Shown one piece after another: positions 5,610 through 58,186 of a DNA stretch of 64,000 bases. The first letter of the stretch is position 1. Each line of letters starts with the position of its first letter. Where the stretch lies: contig OZ024742.1 in NCBI GenBank assembly GCA_964016885.1, positions 67,456,001 to 67,520,000 on the forward strand. Direction: 5' to 3'. The notes beneath the pieces are model-generated. The model was not told the origin of the DNA. It did no database searches and saw only the letters and a list, made by a program, of their open reading frames with translations. Position numbers and translations under genes: made by a program. This DNA is from Eledone cirrhosa. Taxonomy: Eukaryota.

Positions 5610-6248
5610 ACGCGAATAATGTTTCCCTATATGCTGCAAATTTGACTTCAATGAGGTTCACTATACACACACACATATATATATATATATATATATATTT
5701 GTATATATATATATATACCGTGTATATAATAAGCATATATATATATATATATATATATATATATATATATATATATATATATATATATTTGTATATATAT
5801 ATTATACCGTGTATATAATAAGCATATATATATATATATATATATATATATATATATATATATATACATATATATAAGTATATAAGTATATAAGTATATA
5901 TATAAGTATATAAGTATATATATATATAAGTATATATATATATATATATATATATATATATATATATATATATATATATATATATATAGTTTTGCGAGGT
6001 TTTTTATATGAAATCGTGTGTCCAGACAAATATTTTTCTACTTGGGGAGGGTCATATTTGTGTAATATTGCCAGAATTAATAACAGAACACACTCACTGT
6101 TTGGTTGGTTTTCGCTTTTCGCTTCTGTGTCTTTTATATCGGTAATCTAATATAATATAATATACTCGGTCCTCAATGTTGCCATTGACTGACCGACGGT
6201 CAAAAATAATACAGATACAATATAGACACAAACACATATATATAGTTT

Positions 6249-6290
6249 ATCATAAATCTTTCGTTGCACATCTGCAACATCGTCAGTGGT
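6249..6290 (-). ncRNA. Minimal hammerhead ribozyme in PLE-A pLTR
   Basis: Reverse complement of 11947-11988. Confidence 0.7.
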
Positions 6291-6605
6291 TCTATTGTTT
6301 CCTCCTGTTGAATTGTATGGCTACGCCATTTTTATTCAGTCTGTTTATATATTTATTTATTTATTTGCTTGTTTGTTTATTTTATTTTGTCTTCTTTGCG
6401 CATGCGTTTGCGTGTGTGTATAGTGTTTTGTTTGATGTGTGATGTGTGTTCGTGATTGGGTGACTAATGTGTGTTTATGTGTTTGTTGTTATAGTGCTTG
6501 TGTATGTATTTATTTATTTATTTATTTATTTTATTTTATTTTATTTTATTTACTTATTTATACTTCTCTTAGGTCAGTGTTGTTTGTTTGGGTGTTGTTG
6601 TTATT

Positions 6606-9600
6606 TCATTCATTCTTTCTGTTTAGTCTTGGTCTTCTAATTTCTATTTCACTGGCCTCTCTGATTTGCCTATCTGCTGGGTAATTTCTATGTTTAGATA
6701 TTATTCTAATTTCTATGTTGTCTATGTTACCGTCATGTTGTTGTCTGGCATGTTGGTATAGTACTGAACCGTTATTTCGTCCTTTTAGTTCCCCCCAGTG
6801 TTGGTCTATCCTTTCACCTATGCTACGAGCTGTCTCACCTATGTATGTTGTTGTCATGTTTCTGCAGGTACCCTCTGTACATCTCATGCTATAGACTACG
6901 TTTCTAGTTTTACAGTTTATCCGGGGGTTTACCTTACATATGATACATTTCCTATTGGTACAGTGGGTTTTCTTAAAAGGGTAGGTTTTGCTGATCAGGG
7001 ATTTTATGGTGGTTCCTGGCTTTTCTACCACCTTAATTTTTAAGTGGGTCTTTCTCAGGGCCTATTTACACTGGTTAGCTAATTTCCCTCCAGGGGTAGC
7101 GTCCACAAACATGACACTCTGGTATATCTGGTTGTCGTACCAATTGGTGGCTTTCCCTATCTTATGTCTAGCCCTATCTAAGCTATTCCATGATTTGCTC
7201 CTGTATAATGGGCAAATTCCTTTCATGTCCAGTTCTATGAGGGTCTTATACTTCTCCAAGGCTCCTTCGTATACTCTGACTCTGTCTCTTTGGTTGTAGC
7301 CAGAGAACTGCATGCGGTTGATGAAGTGTTGGATGTGTATTTCCATTTCTGTTGGGTCGCAAATGCGGGATACATTCTTCATCACTCGTACCAAATCTGC
7401 GATCAAAATATTAAACTTAGCACTACTGGACATTGCTGAGTTTTTGAGTATCAGGTATTTGGAGGCCATGGGTTTAGTATAGTGTGAGTGGAGAATTTGG
7501 GCTATCTCATCTAAAGTGTTAATCCAGAGTTCTGTGTCTAATACAGGTAGTCTATTGTTAGGGTGTTTGGAACGGAAGTCGATAGTTACAGTTATACTCT
7601 GGTGTATGGAATTAGCTATCTGCTGGATGCTTTCCATTGTGCTACGTTCTAAATCAAACTTGTTAGTGCTCTCTCTCTAGTGGGGATGTTCTTATAACTA
7701 TATTGATATCGTCTACATAACGAGAGTACATGATGAGGTCTATGGAGCTCTCATTAAGGAGATATTTAAGTCTACTTTCCCACCATACCATGAAAAGGTT
7801 GGCAACATCACCAGCTATGCTGACGCCAATGGCTGCTCCTTCATTCTGGGTGTAGATCTTCTCGTTGAACTTAAATATGTGGCCCTTGAGGGTAGTTTTG
7901 ATACTAGCCCCTATTGCATGTGCGACCATTTTTCTTACCTGATCATTGTTTTGGGGGGTCCGTATAGCTTTGGTCCACCCAATCCACCTTCCCATGGGAG
8001 TCTTTTTTGCCATTAAGGTTATGGTCGGGGGTCTACCCCTTATGGGTATACTAGGGCAGAAACGTCCAAGGTCGTAGCTGTCTAGGTAGTCAGTGTCGTA
8101 GGTAAGTCTAAGTAGGAGGCCCAGTTTGTCTGTGTCGATGTTGCAGAACTCCACCTCTCTCTCAATGATCATCTCCACACATCTTTTCACAGCAAAATCA
8201 ATGTTAATGGATGGGTACAGTGACACCACATCCATGCAGCCTATTATGCAGTTGGATAGGTTCCTGTTTTTGTTGCACTCACTGATTCTGCTGAGGAGGT
8301 CCTCTGTACTGTCACATACATCCGGGGACATCTTGATTATGGGGCGTATAACCATGGAGAGGAAGTAGTAGATCCTGTAGTTACTAGCTACATTAGCTCC
8401 GCATACGGGTCTTGTTGGTGGTCCTGTTGTCGGGTCGTCGACTGTCTTGTGGTCTTTGCGGAGCCCATAAAAGGGTGGTATGCCATTGTTAGACGCCTGG
8501 AAGTTGTTCACAGTGCGTCTGCTTGGCTTTAGGATATCAGTCCACATCATCATGTGAGCGTTGAGGATTTTCTCTCTCCCATCGTGTGTTTGTTGTGCAA
8601 TTTCGCTCGTGTTGGTGATGTGGGATTGCATAGCCTTGATGTAGTTCGGCAGGCTATCTATTGACATCCTACCAGACTTATCCGTGGGTAGACATACTGC
8701 CTCACCATCCCTTGTGCGCTGCTTGAGGCTAACCAAGCCTTCTACAGGTTTCCTCCCAAGTTGTTGGGACTCTGGTCTGCTCTGTCTCTCAGTATACCTG
8801 TCTACTATTTGTCTAATCTTATTTCTAGCTATGGTGAACTGTGCCTCTGTCTCGTTATCTATTTGTTGTGGTATGCAAACTCTTTTATTAAAGCGTAACC
8901 TCGTAGGATAGATATTACCCATCTTATATGTTTTGTCAGCTGGGTTGAAAAATAGTTTCTCTAAGGAGTTGTCATTATATCTATCGTCATAGTTGTGTGT
9001 GTTGCTATTATTGTTATCATGGTGGTTGTTGTTGTTCCTATCATTAGCATTATTATTATTGTAATGATTGCTAGATGTATTGTTGGTTACTTCACCGTTA
9101 TTGTTGTTGTTACTGTTATTTCTACCGTTGTGGTTGTTACTATTATTATGTTTCTTGTTTTTGTTGTGTCTATCATTAATGTTGCTACATGTATTATTTC
9201 CATTATTACCACTGTGGTTATTGTTGTTGTTGTTCGTATTGTTACCGTTATTACTACTGTGGTTGCTGCTGCTGTGTCTGTGGTTAATGTTTCTATTATT
9301 ATTGTGGTTGTTGTTGTTCTGTCTATCGTTAGTATTATTACCCTTATTACTATTTCTCACTTTCCTGTTATTTTTATTGTTATGGCTGTTATTTCTATAC
9401 TCAGAGTTATTGTTTATATTACTACTACCGTTATTATTGTTGTTGTTGTTGTTGTTGTTGTTGTTGTTGTTGTTGTTGTTGTTGTTGTTTGTTGTTGTTG
9501 TTGTTGTTTACCTTTGCATTCCAACGTATTTTTGTGAAACACTTTTCCAGCCCCGTTTTGCACTCCATAGGGTTAATCTTCTTGTAGATGGCAAATTTTG

Positions 9601-56139: not shown

Positions 56140-57232
56140 CGATGAGACCAGTCAGGAACTAGAGAAAAACACAATGGAAAGCGTCCAGCAAATAGCAAAC
56201 TCCATCCACCAGAGCATTAGAGTTACTATAGACTACCCAAGTAGACACCCCAACCATCGATTACCTGTACTAGACACAGAGCTCTGGTTAGGTACCATTA
56301 ACAACCAAAAACAAATCCTCCATTCCCATTATGCCAAACCCATGACTTCCAAACATCTGATCCACAGAAACTCGGCCATTTCGGACCATACCAAAATCAA
56401 CATACTGATTGCGGATTTGATACGGGTGATGAGAAATGTGTCCCGCATGTGCAACCCCGAAGAACTAGAGAGACACATACAACACTTCATCCACCGTATG
56501 CAGTTCTCTGGCTACAATCAGAGGGATAGAATCAGAGTGTATAGAGGAGCCAGAACCAAATGGTAAAAAATGTTAAATAATGACATAAATGGGACCTGCC
56601 CCTTGTATAGGAGCAAATTTTGGAATAGAATAGAAAGAACTAGGAACAAGGCCAATAGAATAAACTCATGGTATGATAGCAATAAATACCAGAGTGTAAT
56701 GTTCATCGATACAACCCCTAGAGGCGAACTAGCCTACAAATTTAGAAGGGCCCTAAATAAACATAAACTCAATATTAAGATAGTAGAAAGACCAGGTACC
56801 TCCGTAAAAACACTTATTAGCAAGACATACCCGTTCCAAAGACCCTCATGTATAGATAAGAAATGTATAACCTGCAAAATAAGCCCCCATATTAACTGTA
56901 AAACTAGAAATGTAGTGTATAGCATAAGATGTACTGAAGGACAATGTAGAAACAAAAATATAGTGTACATAGGTGAGACAGCTCGTAGTATAGGGGAACG
57001 GATAAATGAACACTGGCGAGACCTTCAAGATAATAAAGAATCATCTGTACTCTACCAACATGCTAAGATAGAACACAAGGGTAAATTAGAGAACATAGAA
57101 ATAAAAATAGAATCTACACACAGAAAAGATGCAATGTTTAGACAAATTACAGAGGCAATAAACATAAAAGAATTACAACAAAAATTAAATAGAAAATATG
57201 AGTGGAACAGCAACATCACAACTTACAATTAA
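56140..57232 (+). pseudogene. PLE-B RT thumb + GIY-YIG, one in-frame stop at 56564-56566
   Basis: LPVLDTELW, SHYAKPM, YIGETARS; clearly homologous to family A. Confidence 0.85.
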
Positions 57233-57436
57233 GGACAAAATGAAAACACACGCACACATAGAACAAATAACCAACCAATAACATGTAAATAAATAAACAA
57301 ATAGATAAATGAACACAAACACACACAGACACCCGGATGTGGCGCATGCGCAAACTGAGCACACAACACACACACAGAAACAAAATGGTGTAGGACAGAA
57401 GAAAGGAAAGGCACAGAAACAAAGAAAGGAATCCCC

Positions 57437-57481
57437 AGTCACTGAAGAGGTCACAGAGTGTGTGACGAAAGGACTATGACT
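57437..57481 (+). ncRNA. Minimal hammerhead ribozyme in PLE-B pLTR (inverted copy at 55136-55180)
   Basis: agtca-CTGAAGA-g-GTCACA gagtg TGTGAC-GAAA-ggac-TA-tgact. Confidence 0.85.
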
Positions 57482-58186
57482 ATATATAAACAACTATCTG
57501 GTTGTGGAACCAACCAACCAACCAGAAATTTATAAATTTGTAGATTTGTAACTTTATAAATTTATAAATATATAATAAATTGAAGTGAAAGCAACTGGTG
57601 CGTGTGTTTCTTATTGGCAACATGACCCTCCCAAAGTATAACAATATATATATATATATATATATATATATATATATATATATATATATATATATAAAGG
57701 TTTACATATATATATATACATACATACATACATACATACATACATACATACATACATACATACATACATACATACATACATACATACATACATACATACA
57801 TACATATACGTGTTTTGCAACGGGTAACTTTATGGCTCAATTAAAAGTTAGTAAATTAAATAATCAGAGCTATATTACATAAAACATGTCTATAGACATG
57901 TTTTATGATATATATATACATATATATATATATATATATATGTGTGTGTGTGTGTTCGTGTGTATATATATGTATATATGTATGTATACGTATGTGTGCA
58001 TGTGTAAGTATATATATATATATATATATATATATATATGTGTGTGTGTGTGTTCGTGTGTATATATATGTATATATGTATGTATACGTATGTGTGCATG
58101 TGTAAGTATATATATATATATATATATATATATATATATATATATATATATATATATATATATATATATATATATATATATATATG

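What the first reader, a model, noticed from the sequence alone, without database searches (positions are those of the whole stretch)
5988..57646. Fold-back insertion is the rule at every scale (25 bp to 2 kb) and is tied to (TA)n tracts
Seen: inverted-arm structures at 5988-12205, 12228-12752, 19355-19404, 27612-28519, 28960-29825, 36644-37258, 45181-45557, 53454-53590, 54708-54890 and 54913-57646. The arms differ by several percent and the 3' ends point outward into TA runs. Known: PLEs often carry an inverted 5' pLTR. Inference: priming from both ends of a break in (TA)n, with two cDNAs joined head to head, is the dominant pathway here. Read-through transcripts would form long dsRNA, potential ADAR/RNAi substrates.
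Basis: partly seen in the sequence, partly recalled or inferred. Interest (0 to 1): 0.72.

Follow-up and report, generated by a model that had tools for sequence, protein, structure and literature searches.

The report
Head-to-head Penelope insertions in TA repeats
In this animal genome, Penelope-type jumping genes and their small ribozyme-bearing derivatives often sit in TA repeats as two facing copies whose outer ends are always staggered, which suggests that both ends of a DNA cut copy the same RNA; facing copies were already known, but how they form is still an open question.

Summary
All ten inverted structures are real (arms 88-100% alike). They belong to Neptune/Nematis-type Penelope-like elements (PLEs) and to non-coding hammerhead-bearing derivatives. 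With corrected boundaries, 18 of 20 outer ends abut (TA)n (background 0.75%). 'The rule' is overstated: 14 of 22 PLE-type insertions in a hand census. Two of the ten (19355, 53454) are short 5' hairpins, a separate class.

New here: in 11 of 11 full head-to-head structures, one arm ends at an inner site (E) and the other runs 44-111 nt further (tail end, T). None is symmetric. In 6 of the 11 the tail-less arm reaches further 5', which self-copying of one cDNA cannot give. Best reading (0.55): concerted twin priming on one RNA from both ends of a break in self-complementary (TA)n, at the two start sites shown in vitro for another PLE, with strand displacement. Main rival: self-priming plus endonuclease resolution (0.25).

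Inverted PLE copies, one-sided tails, TA bias and siRNA from the inverted arms are all published. Expression and editing were not testable, and laid reads did not settle the artefact question. The scan held no earlier matching note.

The parts
5989..10213 (-). S1 T arm: near full-length Neptune/Nematis-type PLE (family N1), broken by frameshifts and a stop; carries the tail at its 3' end (5989-6032) and a second copy of the tail at its 5' end (about 10165-10213); Asn-rich block 8960-9507 (52% N)
10210..12203 (+). S1 E arm: 5'-truncated inverted copy ending at inner site E, in codon 9 of the ORF start that lies inside the pLTR; hammerhead-like motif at 11951 (mate at 6286, minus strand)
12229..12754 (.). 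S2: family F (317-330 nt tandem unit, hammerhead-like core with U3/A8). E arm minus 12229-12478, T arm plus 12479-12754; E arm reaches 22 nt further 5'; 2-nt junction microhomology
16780..16993 (.).
19215..19406 (-). S3: hammerhead-bearing minus-strand insertion between two TA tracts; 25-bp perfect hairpin (19354-19405, 2-nt loop) at its 5' end; short-hairpin class
27618..28516 (.). S4: 458-nt tandem unit with hammerhead-like motif (28255 plus, 27769 minus). E arm minus 27619-27899; T arm plus 27899-28516 (1.36 units, 111-nt tail)
28963..29929 (.). S5: 426-bp arms with a 5-nt loop; hammerhead-like motifs at 29062 minus and 29728 plus; right arm runs on about 104 nt into repeat sequence (its T end is approximate)
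36645..37258 (.). S6: family F. T arm minus 36645-37066 (1.3 units); short arm plus 37064-37258, ending 15 nt upstream of S2's E site
42008..42204 (.). Extra (missed): about 55-bp imperfect arms with a 1-nt loop and an 84-nt tail on the left arm; both ends in TA; family unassigned
44946..45150 (.). Extra (missed): family H. Inverted tail plus only 14 nt of overlap, then an E arm with hammerhead (45054); may be a re-mobilised or deleted copy of S9
45181..45637 (.). S7: E arm minus 45181-45335, T arm plus 45335-45637 (81-nt tail); both arms run into the same SINE 3' piece at the centre; degenerate hammerhead-like core (read by eye)
53451..53964 (+). S8: family F, 1.3 tandem units ending in TA, with a 57-bp inverted 5' piece that is not TA-flanked; short-hairpin class
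54619..54886 (.). S9: family H. T arm minus 54619-54782 (90-nt tail), E arm plus about 54789-54886, reaching 30 nt further 5'
54914..57643 (.). S10: PLE family N2. T arm minus 54914-56144 (60-nt tail, internal deletion of about 210 nt); E arm plus 56145-57643, reaching 110 nt further 5'; hammerheads at 55175 minus and 57442 plus
59743..59997 (.). Extra (missed): old family-N2 head-to-head copy. E arm minus 59743-59902; T arm plus is little more than the tail (18-nt overlap); TA flanks lost
27400..27517 (+). Plain family-H copy ending at site E in TA (independent check of E)
47117..47369 (-). Plain family-N2 copy ending at site E in TA (independent check of E)
30392..31952 (+). Plain family-N1 pieces (30392-31071 and 31896-31952), the last ending at site E in degenerate TA; interrupted by other repeats

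Best explanation
The main class arises at integration by concerted twin priming. The PLE GIY-YIG endonuclease cuts both strands in a (TA)n tract. Because (TA)n is its own complement, both new 3' ends are the same primer. The PLE protein, probably a dimer, holds one read-through RNA that runs past the pLTR into the next unit. One DNA end starts reverse transcription at the outer site T (the tail end); the other starts at the inner site E, 44-111 nt upstream, helped by a few TA-phase base pairs. The T-primed enzyme either stops soon after meeting the E-primed cDNA (14-18 nt overlap) or displaces it and copies the same RNA again (74-1984 nt overlap). The two cDNA 3' ends join through 0-5 nt of microhomology and are filled in. 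The result is a head-to-head pair with outward 3' ends and a tail on one arm only. The same machinery acts in trans on small hammerhead-bearing, retrozyme-like RNAs. SHOWN here: the anatomy, the E/T stagger, non-nested arms, microhomologies, TA flanks, family identity. SHOWN for another PLE in vitro (PMC11167929): both strands cut and extended, two start sites bounding the tail; the dimer is only predicted. INFERRED: the double-strand cut in (TA)n, one shared RNA, displacement, the joining step, mobilisation in trans.
For: (1) 11 of 11 structures with both arms near the element 3' end have staggered outer ends and 0 are symmetric. Counting 44946 and S9 as one event leaves 10; an independent 50:50 choice of site gives about 0.001 (my arithmetic). 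(2) E and T recur in separate copies. E recurs at 27517, 31952, 47117, 45150 and 59743. T recurs between S2, S6 and 16993, between S9 and 44946, and between S10 and 59997. (3) In N1 and N2 the tail is the start of the ORF, so the template ran on into the next unit, as in Adineta Pen2a (PMC3846280, passages) and Anolis PAc (PMC11167929, main text). (4) The tail-less arm reaches further 5' in 6 of 11 (S2 +22, S7 +11, S9 +30, S10 +110, 44946 +87, 59743 about +150), the tailed arm in 3 (S1, S4, S6), with ties in 2 (S5, 42008), so neither arm can always be a copy of the other. (5) E ends carry 2-8 nt of TA-phase microhomology in 9 of 9 examined (sum 34, null mean 9.4, P=5e-5). In 5 of 7 E arms checked, TA-phase runs of 5-9 nt lie inside the arm and did not end it. 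(6) Signs of a shared template: both S7 arms continue into the same SINE piece, which the only other family copy lacks; both S2 arms share one variant absent from S6 and S8; in 5 of 11 the two 5' ends lie within 30 nt. (7) Overlap forms a continuum from 14 nt to 1984 nt.
Against: One window and 11 events, picked partly by eye. For S4, S5, S7 and 42008, E and T are defined only by the locus itself; S5's T end is not in a clean TA tract; S6's short arm ends 15 nt off the E site of S2. Loops of 1 and 5 nt (42008, S5) and the three short hairpins (S3, S8, 16905) are what snap-back predicts. Deletions at palindrome centres after insertion could turn nested arms into non-nested ones, and S10's T arm does carry an internal deletion. 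A shared variant or chimera also follows if two RNAs came from one source locus. PAc showed no strand preference of start site in vitro, and it is a Poseidon element, not a Neptune. No empty site, target-site duplication, RNA data or genome-wide count was obtained.
Confidence: 0.55

Rival explanations
1. Self-priming (snap-back) with endonuclease resolution: one strand folds back on itself and is copied into a hairpin; the GIY-YIG domain cuts, or the polymerase stops, at staggered sites E and T, and the opened palindrome is joined to TA ends. This is the published idea for PLE palindromes and tails.
For: PMC3846280 (passages) reads palindromic junctions as self-priming; PMC8557442 (passages) attributes the tail to endonuclease resolution. 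Loops of 1-30 nt in S2, S3, S5, S7, S8, S9, 16905 and 42008. It also predicts a strict stagger, and it fits S1, S4, S6 and the three short hairpins directly.
Against: A cut of fixed polarity predicts the loop always on the same arm type, yet it lies on the E arm in 6 and the T arm in 3. Stopping by microhomology should often use the TA runs inside the arms. In vitro, E and T of PAc are reverse-transcription start sites (PMC11167929).
Confidence: 0.25
2. Two independent RNPs, each with its own RNA, prime on the two ends of the break.
For: Explains head-to-head orientation, non-nested arms and long overlaps without displacement. S2's arms (94.3%) are hardly closer to each other than to the S8 copy (93.4-93.6%).
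Against: Predicts E/E and T/T pairs; 0 of 11 seen. The three plain copies with a known site all end at E, so E/E should be common. No mixed-family pair was seen, although several families share the same TA tracts.
Confidence: 0.09
3. DNA-level events after or apart from retrotransposition: a second copy landing in the same TA tract, replication fold-back at fragile (TA)n, or reshaping of palindrome centres.
For: TA tracts are reused (S1/S2, 44946/S7 and S9/S10 share tracts). S10 and S7 have internal rearrangements. Fold-back of broken ends is described for L1 (10.1101/2024.12.14.628481, passages).
Against: There is no TA tract at any centre. The inverted sequence is always element sequence, never flank. 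Outer ends fall on family-specific sites. Of the 5 SINE-like copies outside S7, none is folded back.
Confidence: 0.08
4. Assembly or long-read fold-back artefacts.
For: Palindromes are error-prone in assembly, and no record listed bridges a centre (only 24 of more than 124,000 pieces were shown).
Against: Arms differ by 2-12% in 9 of 10. Pooled transitions/transversions between arms (50/77 over S1-S10) lie between those of close separate copies (17/38) and all 16 copy pairs (153/168). Ends fall on biological sites shared with solo copies, and unique spacers lie between arms.
Confidence: 0.03

Closest known systems
EN+ Penelope-like elements of the Neptune/Nematis type, with inverted 5'-truncated copy and one-sided 30-40 bp tail (PMC8557442, PMC3846280; passages read)
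   Same: RT plus C-terminal GIY-YIG with Cys linker; hammerhead in the pLTR; ORF start inside the pLTR and tail; head-to-head inverted copy; tail on one end only; microsatellite targets; Asn-rich insert.
   Different: Tails here are 44-111 nt. The stagger is seen in every full structure across at least 7 families, most of them non-coding. Those papers explain the structure by self-priming or endonuclease resolution; the passages I read do not propose twin priming.
PAc (Poseidon of Anolis carolinensis) in vitro system (PMC11167929; main text read)
   Same: AT-rich target, both strands cut and extended, two internal start sites inside the ORF start that bound the tail, predicted dimer.
   Different: Different clade; start sites 111-118 nt into the ORF against about 27 and 68-83 nt here; the paper reports no primer homology, whereas E ends here show 2-8 nt; it does not discuss inverted insertions.
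L1 twin priming (PMC2912911; passages read)
   Same: Both target ends prime on one RNA; the cDNAs are joined by microhomology; 5' inversion results. The structures at 44946 and 59743 look like it.
   Different: In L1 the second primer anneals internally and the two parts are different stretches of the RNA. Here both sites are fixed, close together and near the 3' end, so the arms overlap by up to 2 kb; there is no poly(A), and the target is symmetric.
Non-LTR retrozymes of animals (bioRxiv 10.64898/2026.07.22.740005, parts 1-2 of 5 and passages; PMC7229834, listing and abstract start only)
   Same: Non-coding tandem units of a few hundred nt with a type I hammerhead, derived from PLE pLTRs.
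   Different: Here they occur as 0.3-1.4 units and mostly head to head in TA. The word 'inverted' occurs once in that preprint (in a reference title) and zero times in PMC7229834.
siRNA-producing inverted Penelope copies of Drosophila (PMC3681739; passages read)
   Same: Inverted arms able to form long dsRNA.
   Different: Shown there with small-RNA data; untested here.

Membership tests
EN+ PLE, Neptune/Nematis type (S1, S10) | Single ORF with RT followed by C-terminal GIY-YIG endonuclease | tested here: met
   RT motifs (YVDD, GAAIG) and a GIY-YIG-like pair are visible in translations. Pfam gave no RT or GIY-YIG hit on the window proteins themselves, but 8 of 24 aligned members hit GIY-YIG and 1 hit RVT_1. 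The ORF is broken in S1.
EN+ PLE, Neptune/Nematis type (S1, S10) | CX2-5CxxC linker before the endonuclease and CCHH motif | tested here: met
   CX4CxxC, two Cys inside the core and two His, invariant or nearly so in alignment A1; definition from PMC8557442
EN+ PLE, Neptune/Nematis type (S1, S10) | pLTR with hammerhead; ORF start inside the pLTR; optional tail | tested here: met
   the hammerheads are descriptor matches, and Rfam gave only one weak hammerhead hit in the window (37111-37182, E 0.17)
Neptune versus Nematis clade | Placement in an RT phylogeny with reference elements | not tested
   No named reference PLE sequences were available from the tools
EN+ PLE | Target-site duplication | not testable with these tools
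   Both flanks are (TA)n and no empty site was obtained
Non-LTR retrozymes (S2, S4, S6, S8) | Non-coding tandem unit of a few hundred nt with type I hammerhead | tested here: met
   Units of 317-330 nt and 458 nt; motifs; no ORF of 150 aa or more
Non-LTR retrozymes (S2, S4, S6, S8) | At least two consecutive units each with a hammerhead (criterion for an active locus) | tested here: not met
   At most 1.4 units, with one motif per arm
Non-LTR retrozymes | Self-cleavage and circular RNA | not testable with these tools
   No RNA holder listed
L1-type twin priming | Microhomology at the internal priming site and at the inversion junction | tested here: met
   E ends 2-8 nt; junctions about 0-5 nt, read by eye and not tested against chance
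L1-type twin priming | Inverted and direct parts come from different stretches of the RNA | tested here: not met
   Met only approximately in 2 of 11 (44946, 59743); in the other 9 the arms overlap by about 55-1984 nt
MITE / Foldback DNA transposon | Fixed terminal inverted repeats shared by all copies of a family | tested here: not met
   Fold points and arm lengths differ among S2, S6 and S8 and between S9 and 44946; the same sequences occur as tandems and solos with hammerheads

The most novel reading that the evidence does not exclude
Head-to-head insertion is the native integration product of these PLEs: a dimeric enzyme places one active site at E and one at T on a single RNA, so one mechanism explains the three old PLE puzzles together (inverted 5' copies, one-sided tail, microsatellite targeting). 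It would also mean that retrozyme-like RNAs are integrated the same way, seeding this genome with a ready-made long hairpin about every 5 kb in regions like this one, a large source of dsRNA in a lineage (probably an octopus) noted for heavy RNA editing.
Probability: 0.35. Interest if true: 0.72.

Novelty: new variant of a known kind. Interest (0 to 1): 0.5.

Why it matters
How PLEs form tandem and inverted insertions, tails and microsatellite bias is named as unresolved in PMC8557442, and the only in vitro study I found (PMC11167929) leaves the later steps open. The E/T pairing rule seen here links that study's two start sites to the inverted copies and gives a cheap genome-wide test and a direct biochemical test. 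It also warns annotators that many apparent MITEs or hairpin RNAs in TA-rich invertebrate genomes may be PLE-driven retro-insertions. The host consequence (dsRNA, editing, silencing) is plausible but unshown.

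Tried and rejected
Genome-wide count: impossible, because no genome is held for this window.

Relatives' loci: the metagenome scan gave 6 confirmed loci of 100 matched stretches, all on contigs of 2.6 kb or less; they were not analysed further.

Reads: 4 of the 12 listed runs were laid on 27120-32010. The output was swamped by the SINE-like repeat; no listed piece bridged a centre or showed an empty site, so it is inconclusive. It does show these families are multi-copy in the same species label and present in a second organism. 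No RNA holder listed.

Rfam: no match reached a gathering score; the miRNA hits are hairpin and microsatellite noise. Pfam missed RT and GIY-YIG on the window's own PLE proteins. Two simpler hammerhead descriptors were weak. The final one scored 10 sites at 9 or more (9 inside candidate regions) against 0-1 in 3 shuffles; it did not pick up S7, 42008, 16905 or 59743.

A-to-G editing footprint between arms: none seen. MITE reading: rejected (see membership); 31088-31579 is the one MITE-like element and was used as a control. 35500-35775 and 49054-49536 were dropped from the census: the first joins two unlike subfamily pieces, the second is of unassigned family (77% arms); 54212-54587, its relative, was left out for the same reason.

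Earlier scan notes: 4 look-ups gave nothing on this genome or sequence; three unrelated palindrome notes were not used.

Not-in-print check: 'twin priming' + 'Penelope' gave 3 papers (listing only; by title none is about PLE integration); 'Neptune/Penelope-like/head-to-head/self-priming' gave only PMC3846280. Arkhipova 2006 was not held, and older subscription papers and all supplements were not seen, so an earlier proposal of this model cannot be excluded.

Full report
SETTING. The window is eukaryotic, AT-rich, repeat-dense DNA with 91 (TA)>=5 tracts covering 2,500 nt. No whole genome is held, so all counts are for this window. The only hit carrying a species name among 76 relatives of the S1 protein is from Octopus bimaculoides (50% identity), and an abundant SINE-like repeat resembles one I recall from octopus genomes. 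'Probably an octopus' is therefore an inference.

OBSERVATION. After masking simple repeats, self-alignment recovers all ten. Arms are 25-1984 nt long and 88-100% alike. Of 49 segments bounded by TA tracts, 13 hold an inverted alignment scoring 60 or more; the best shuffled control scored 44. With whole-insertion limits 18 of 20 are 1 nt away, the misses being S5-right and S8-left. The background is 0.75%. Neighbouring insertions share tracts (S1/S2, 44946/S7, S9/S10), as expected if each new insertion splits a tract. Four further structures were missed: 16905-16993, 42008-42204, 44946-45150 and 59743-59997. Mismatches between arms (50 transitions, 77 transversions over S1-S10) resemble those between separate copies (17/38 for the 8 closest pairs, 153/168 for all 16) and show no A-to-G excess. 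The arms look naturally aged, and neither edited nor duplicated by the assembler.

IDENTITY. S1 and S10 are two families (N1, N2; about 70% alike in DNA) of PLE. [quoted passage not shown] Both are broken. S1 has an Asn-rich block (52% N) like the inserts of Adineta Penelopes (PMC3846280, passages). The other structures are non-coding. S2, S6 and S8 are one family with a 317-330 nt tandem unit, and S4 has a 458 nt unit. A descriptor finds type I hammerhead-like motifs, pointing outward, in S1-S6 and S8-S10 (S8 weak); S7 has a degenerate core seen by eye. Rfam supports this only weakly. These small families match the description of non-LTR retrozymes, which a 2026 preprint derives from PLE pLTRs (10.64898/2026.07.22.740005, parts 1-2 and passages). 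The orientation of S7 and 42008 is inferred by analogy.

IS IT THE RULE? My hand census of PLE-type insertions gives 11 full head-to-head structures (S1, S2, S4, S5, S6, S7, S9, S10, 42008, 44946, 59743), 3 insertions with a short 5' hairpin (S3, S8, 16905), and 8 plain ones (16242, 27400, 28543, 30392 with 31896, 41936, 47117, 49829, 52009). Seven of the eight plain ones were checked for an inverted partner and scored 18-25, chance level; 41936 was only aligned and has a 43-nt hairpin just upstream. Three rows were dropped as ambiguous (35500, 49054, 54212). So 14 of 22 are inverted, and inverted copies are easier to spot than plain ones.

In 11 of 11 full structures the outer ends are staggered. 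One arm stops at an inner site E; the other continues 44 (S1), 48 (S2), 111 (S4), about 104 (S5), 67 (S6), 81 (S7), 90 (S9, 44946), 60 (S10), 84 (42008) or about 60 nt (59743) to a site T. E is also where plain copies end (27517, 31952, 47117), and T recurs within families F, H and N2. In N1 and N2 the pLTR ends in the first codons of the ORF (MTLPKYNNI), E falls in codon 9, and the tail continues the reading frame. The template RNA therefore ran into the next unit. This is the PLE tail, known to be present on one end only (PMC8557442, PMC3846280) and shown in vitro to lie between two reverse-transcription start sites (PMC11167929). E ends show 4, 8, 5, 2, 3, 2, 3, 4 and 3 nt of TA-phase microhomology (read by eye; P=5e-5 against random junctions). 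The four T ends with a known continuation show 2, 0, 2 and 2 nt. Toward the centre, the E arm reaches further 5' in 6 cases, the T arm in 3, and 2 are ties with loops of 1 and 5 nt. Junction microhomology, where a template is known, is about 0-5 nt. Both S7 arms run into the same SINE piece, which is absent from the other family copy at 63827.

MECHANISM. A cDNA folding back on itself must contain the arm it makes, and that fails in 6 of 11 unless the centres were later deleted. Two independent RNAs should give E/E and T/T pairs, and 0 of 11 do. One RNA primed twice, at T and at E, from the two identical ends of a break in self-complementary (TA)n accounts for the orientation, the stagger, the shared template features and the continuum of overlap. 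With 14-18 nt of overlap (44946, 59743) the product looks like L1 twin priming (PMC2912911, passages). Longer overlaps need the T-primed enzyme to displace the other cDNA, which I infer from general knowledge of non-LTR RTs lacking RNase H and did not test. PAc cuts and extends both strands and is predicted to be a dimer (PMC11167929), which makes the step plausible. I give this 0.55. Self-priming with endonuclease resolution also yields a stagger and fits the tiny loops and the three short hairpins, which I think it may well explain even if the main class is twin-primed; I give it 0.25. Two independent RNAs 0.09, DNA-level events 0.08, artefact 0.03.

OUTSIDE EVIDENCE. Reads did not settle the artefact or empty-site questions. 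Four of 12 listed runs were laid on 27120-32010 and were dominated by repeats; no listed piece bridges a centre. Depth does show that the S4, S5, H and N1 sequences, including the S5 tail region, are repeats in the same species label and occur in a second organism. Relatives' contigs were too short.

dsRNA. A transcript through S5 would fold into one 430-bp hairpin (-693.7 kcal/mol; shuffles -198.6). Inverted Penelope copies make siRNAs that match the inverted regions in Drosophila (PMC3681739, passages), and repeats are the main A-to-I targets across metazoans (10.1101/2020.01.19.911685, passages). Nothing here shows these loci are transcribed.

NOVELTY AND VERDICT. What I did not find in print (searches; subscription papers and supplements unseen) is the strict pairing of one E arm with one T arm, its extension to retrozyme-like families, and the twin-priming reading that ties it to the in vitro start sites. 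That makes an acknowledged open question testable, on the strength of 10-11 events in one window. New variant of a known kind; interest 0.5.

Noticed in passing
window 10165-10213: The long arm of S1 ends, at its 5' side, almost exactly at site E of the upstream unit: one full unit (about 4180 nt) plus the tail. This would fit a circular monomer template blocked by the E-anchored cDNA; the small tandem families do not show the same stop.
   Followed up: partly
window 12550 +, 36845 -, 37125 +, 53789 +: Family F hammerhead-like core has U and A where C3 and G8 are usual, a compensatory pair, in four arms.
   Followed up: partly
window 27769 -, 28255 +: S4 hammerhead-like motif has an unusually long (about 50 nt) stem II region.
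   Followed up: no
window 37255 and 31071: S6's short arm ends 15 nt upstream of S2's E site, just after a small hairpin; the N1 copy at 30392 stops being alignable just after its hammerhead, at an internal TA run. These may be alternative start sites or later breakpoints.
   Followed up: no
window 44946-45150 and 54619-54886: Two family-H structures share T, E and nearly the same 5' end of the E arm; whole palindromes may be re-mobilised.
   Followed up: partly
window 1966-4997 (minus): 5' part of a LINE with an APE-type endonuclease ORF (Pfam Exo_endo_phos) and upstream ORFs; it runs off the window start.
   Followed up: no
window 37802-39950 (plus): Broken Helitron Rep/helicase ORFs (Pfam Helitron_like_N).
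   Followed up: no
window 52009-53190 (minus): A third, distant PLE family (GIY-YIG-like ORF, 23% identical to S1 in the alignment), with no inverted partner.
   Followed up: partly
window 31088-31579: MITE-like element with 64-bp terminal inverted repeats (91%) and a non-palindromic interior.
   Followed up: partly
window 49054-49536 and 54212-54587: Repeat of unassigned family next to TA tracts, with a tRNA-like internal stretch (by eye) and, in the first copy, old inverted arms (77% over 136 nt).
   Followed up: partly
window 17203, 26260, 31711, 35854, 63612: Five copies of a very high-copy SINE-like repeat (highest depth); a 3' piece of it is captured at the centre of S7.
   Followed up: partly
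window 14096-14599 (minus): Decayed LINE reverse-transcriptase fragment (weak RVT_1 hit).
   Followed up: no
window 44146-44553 and 57911-58137: Local tandem duplications of 196 nt and 98 nt.
   Followed up: no
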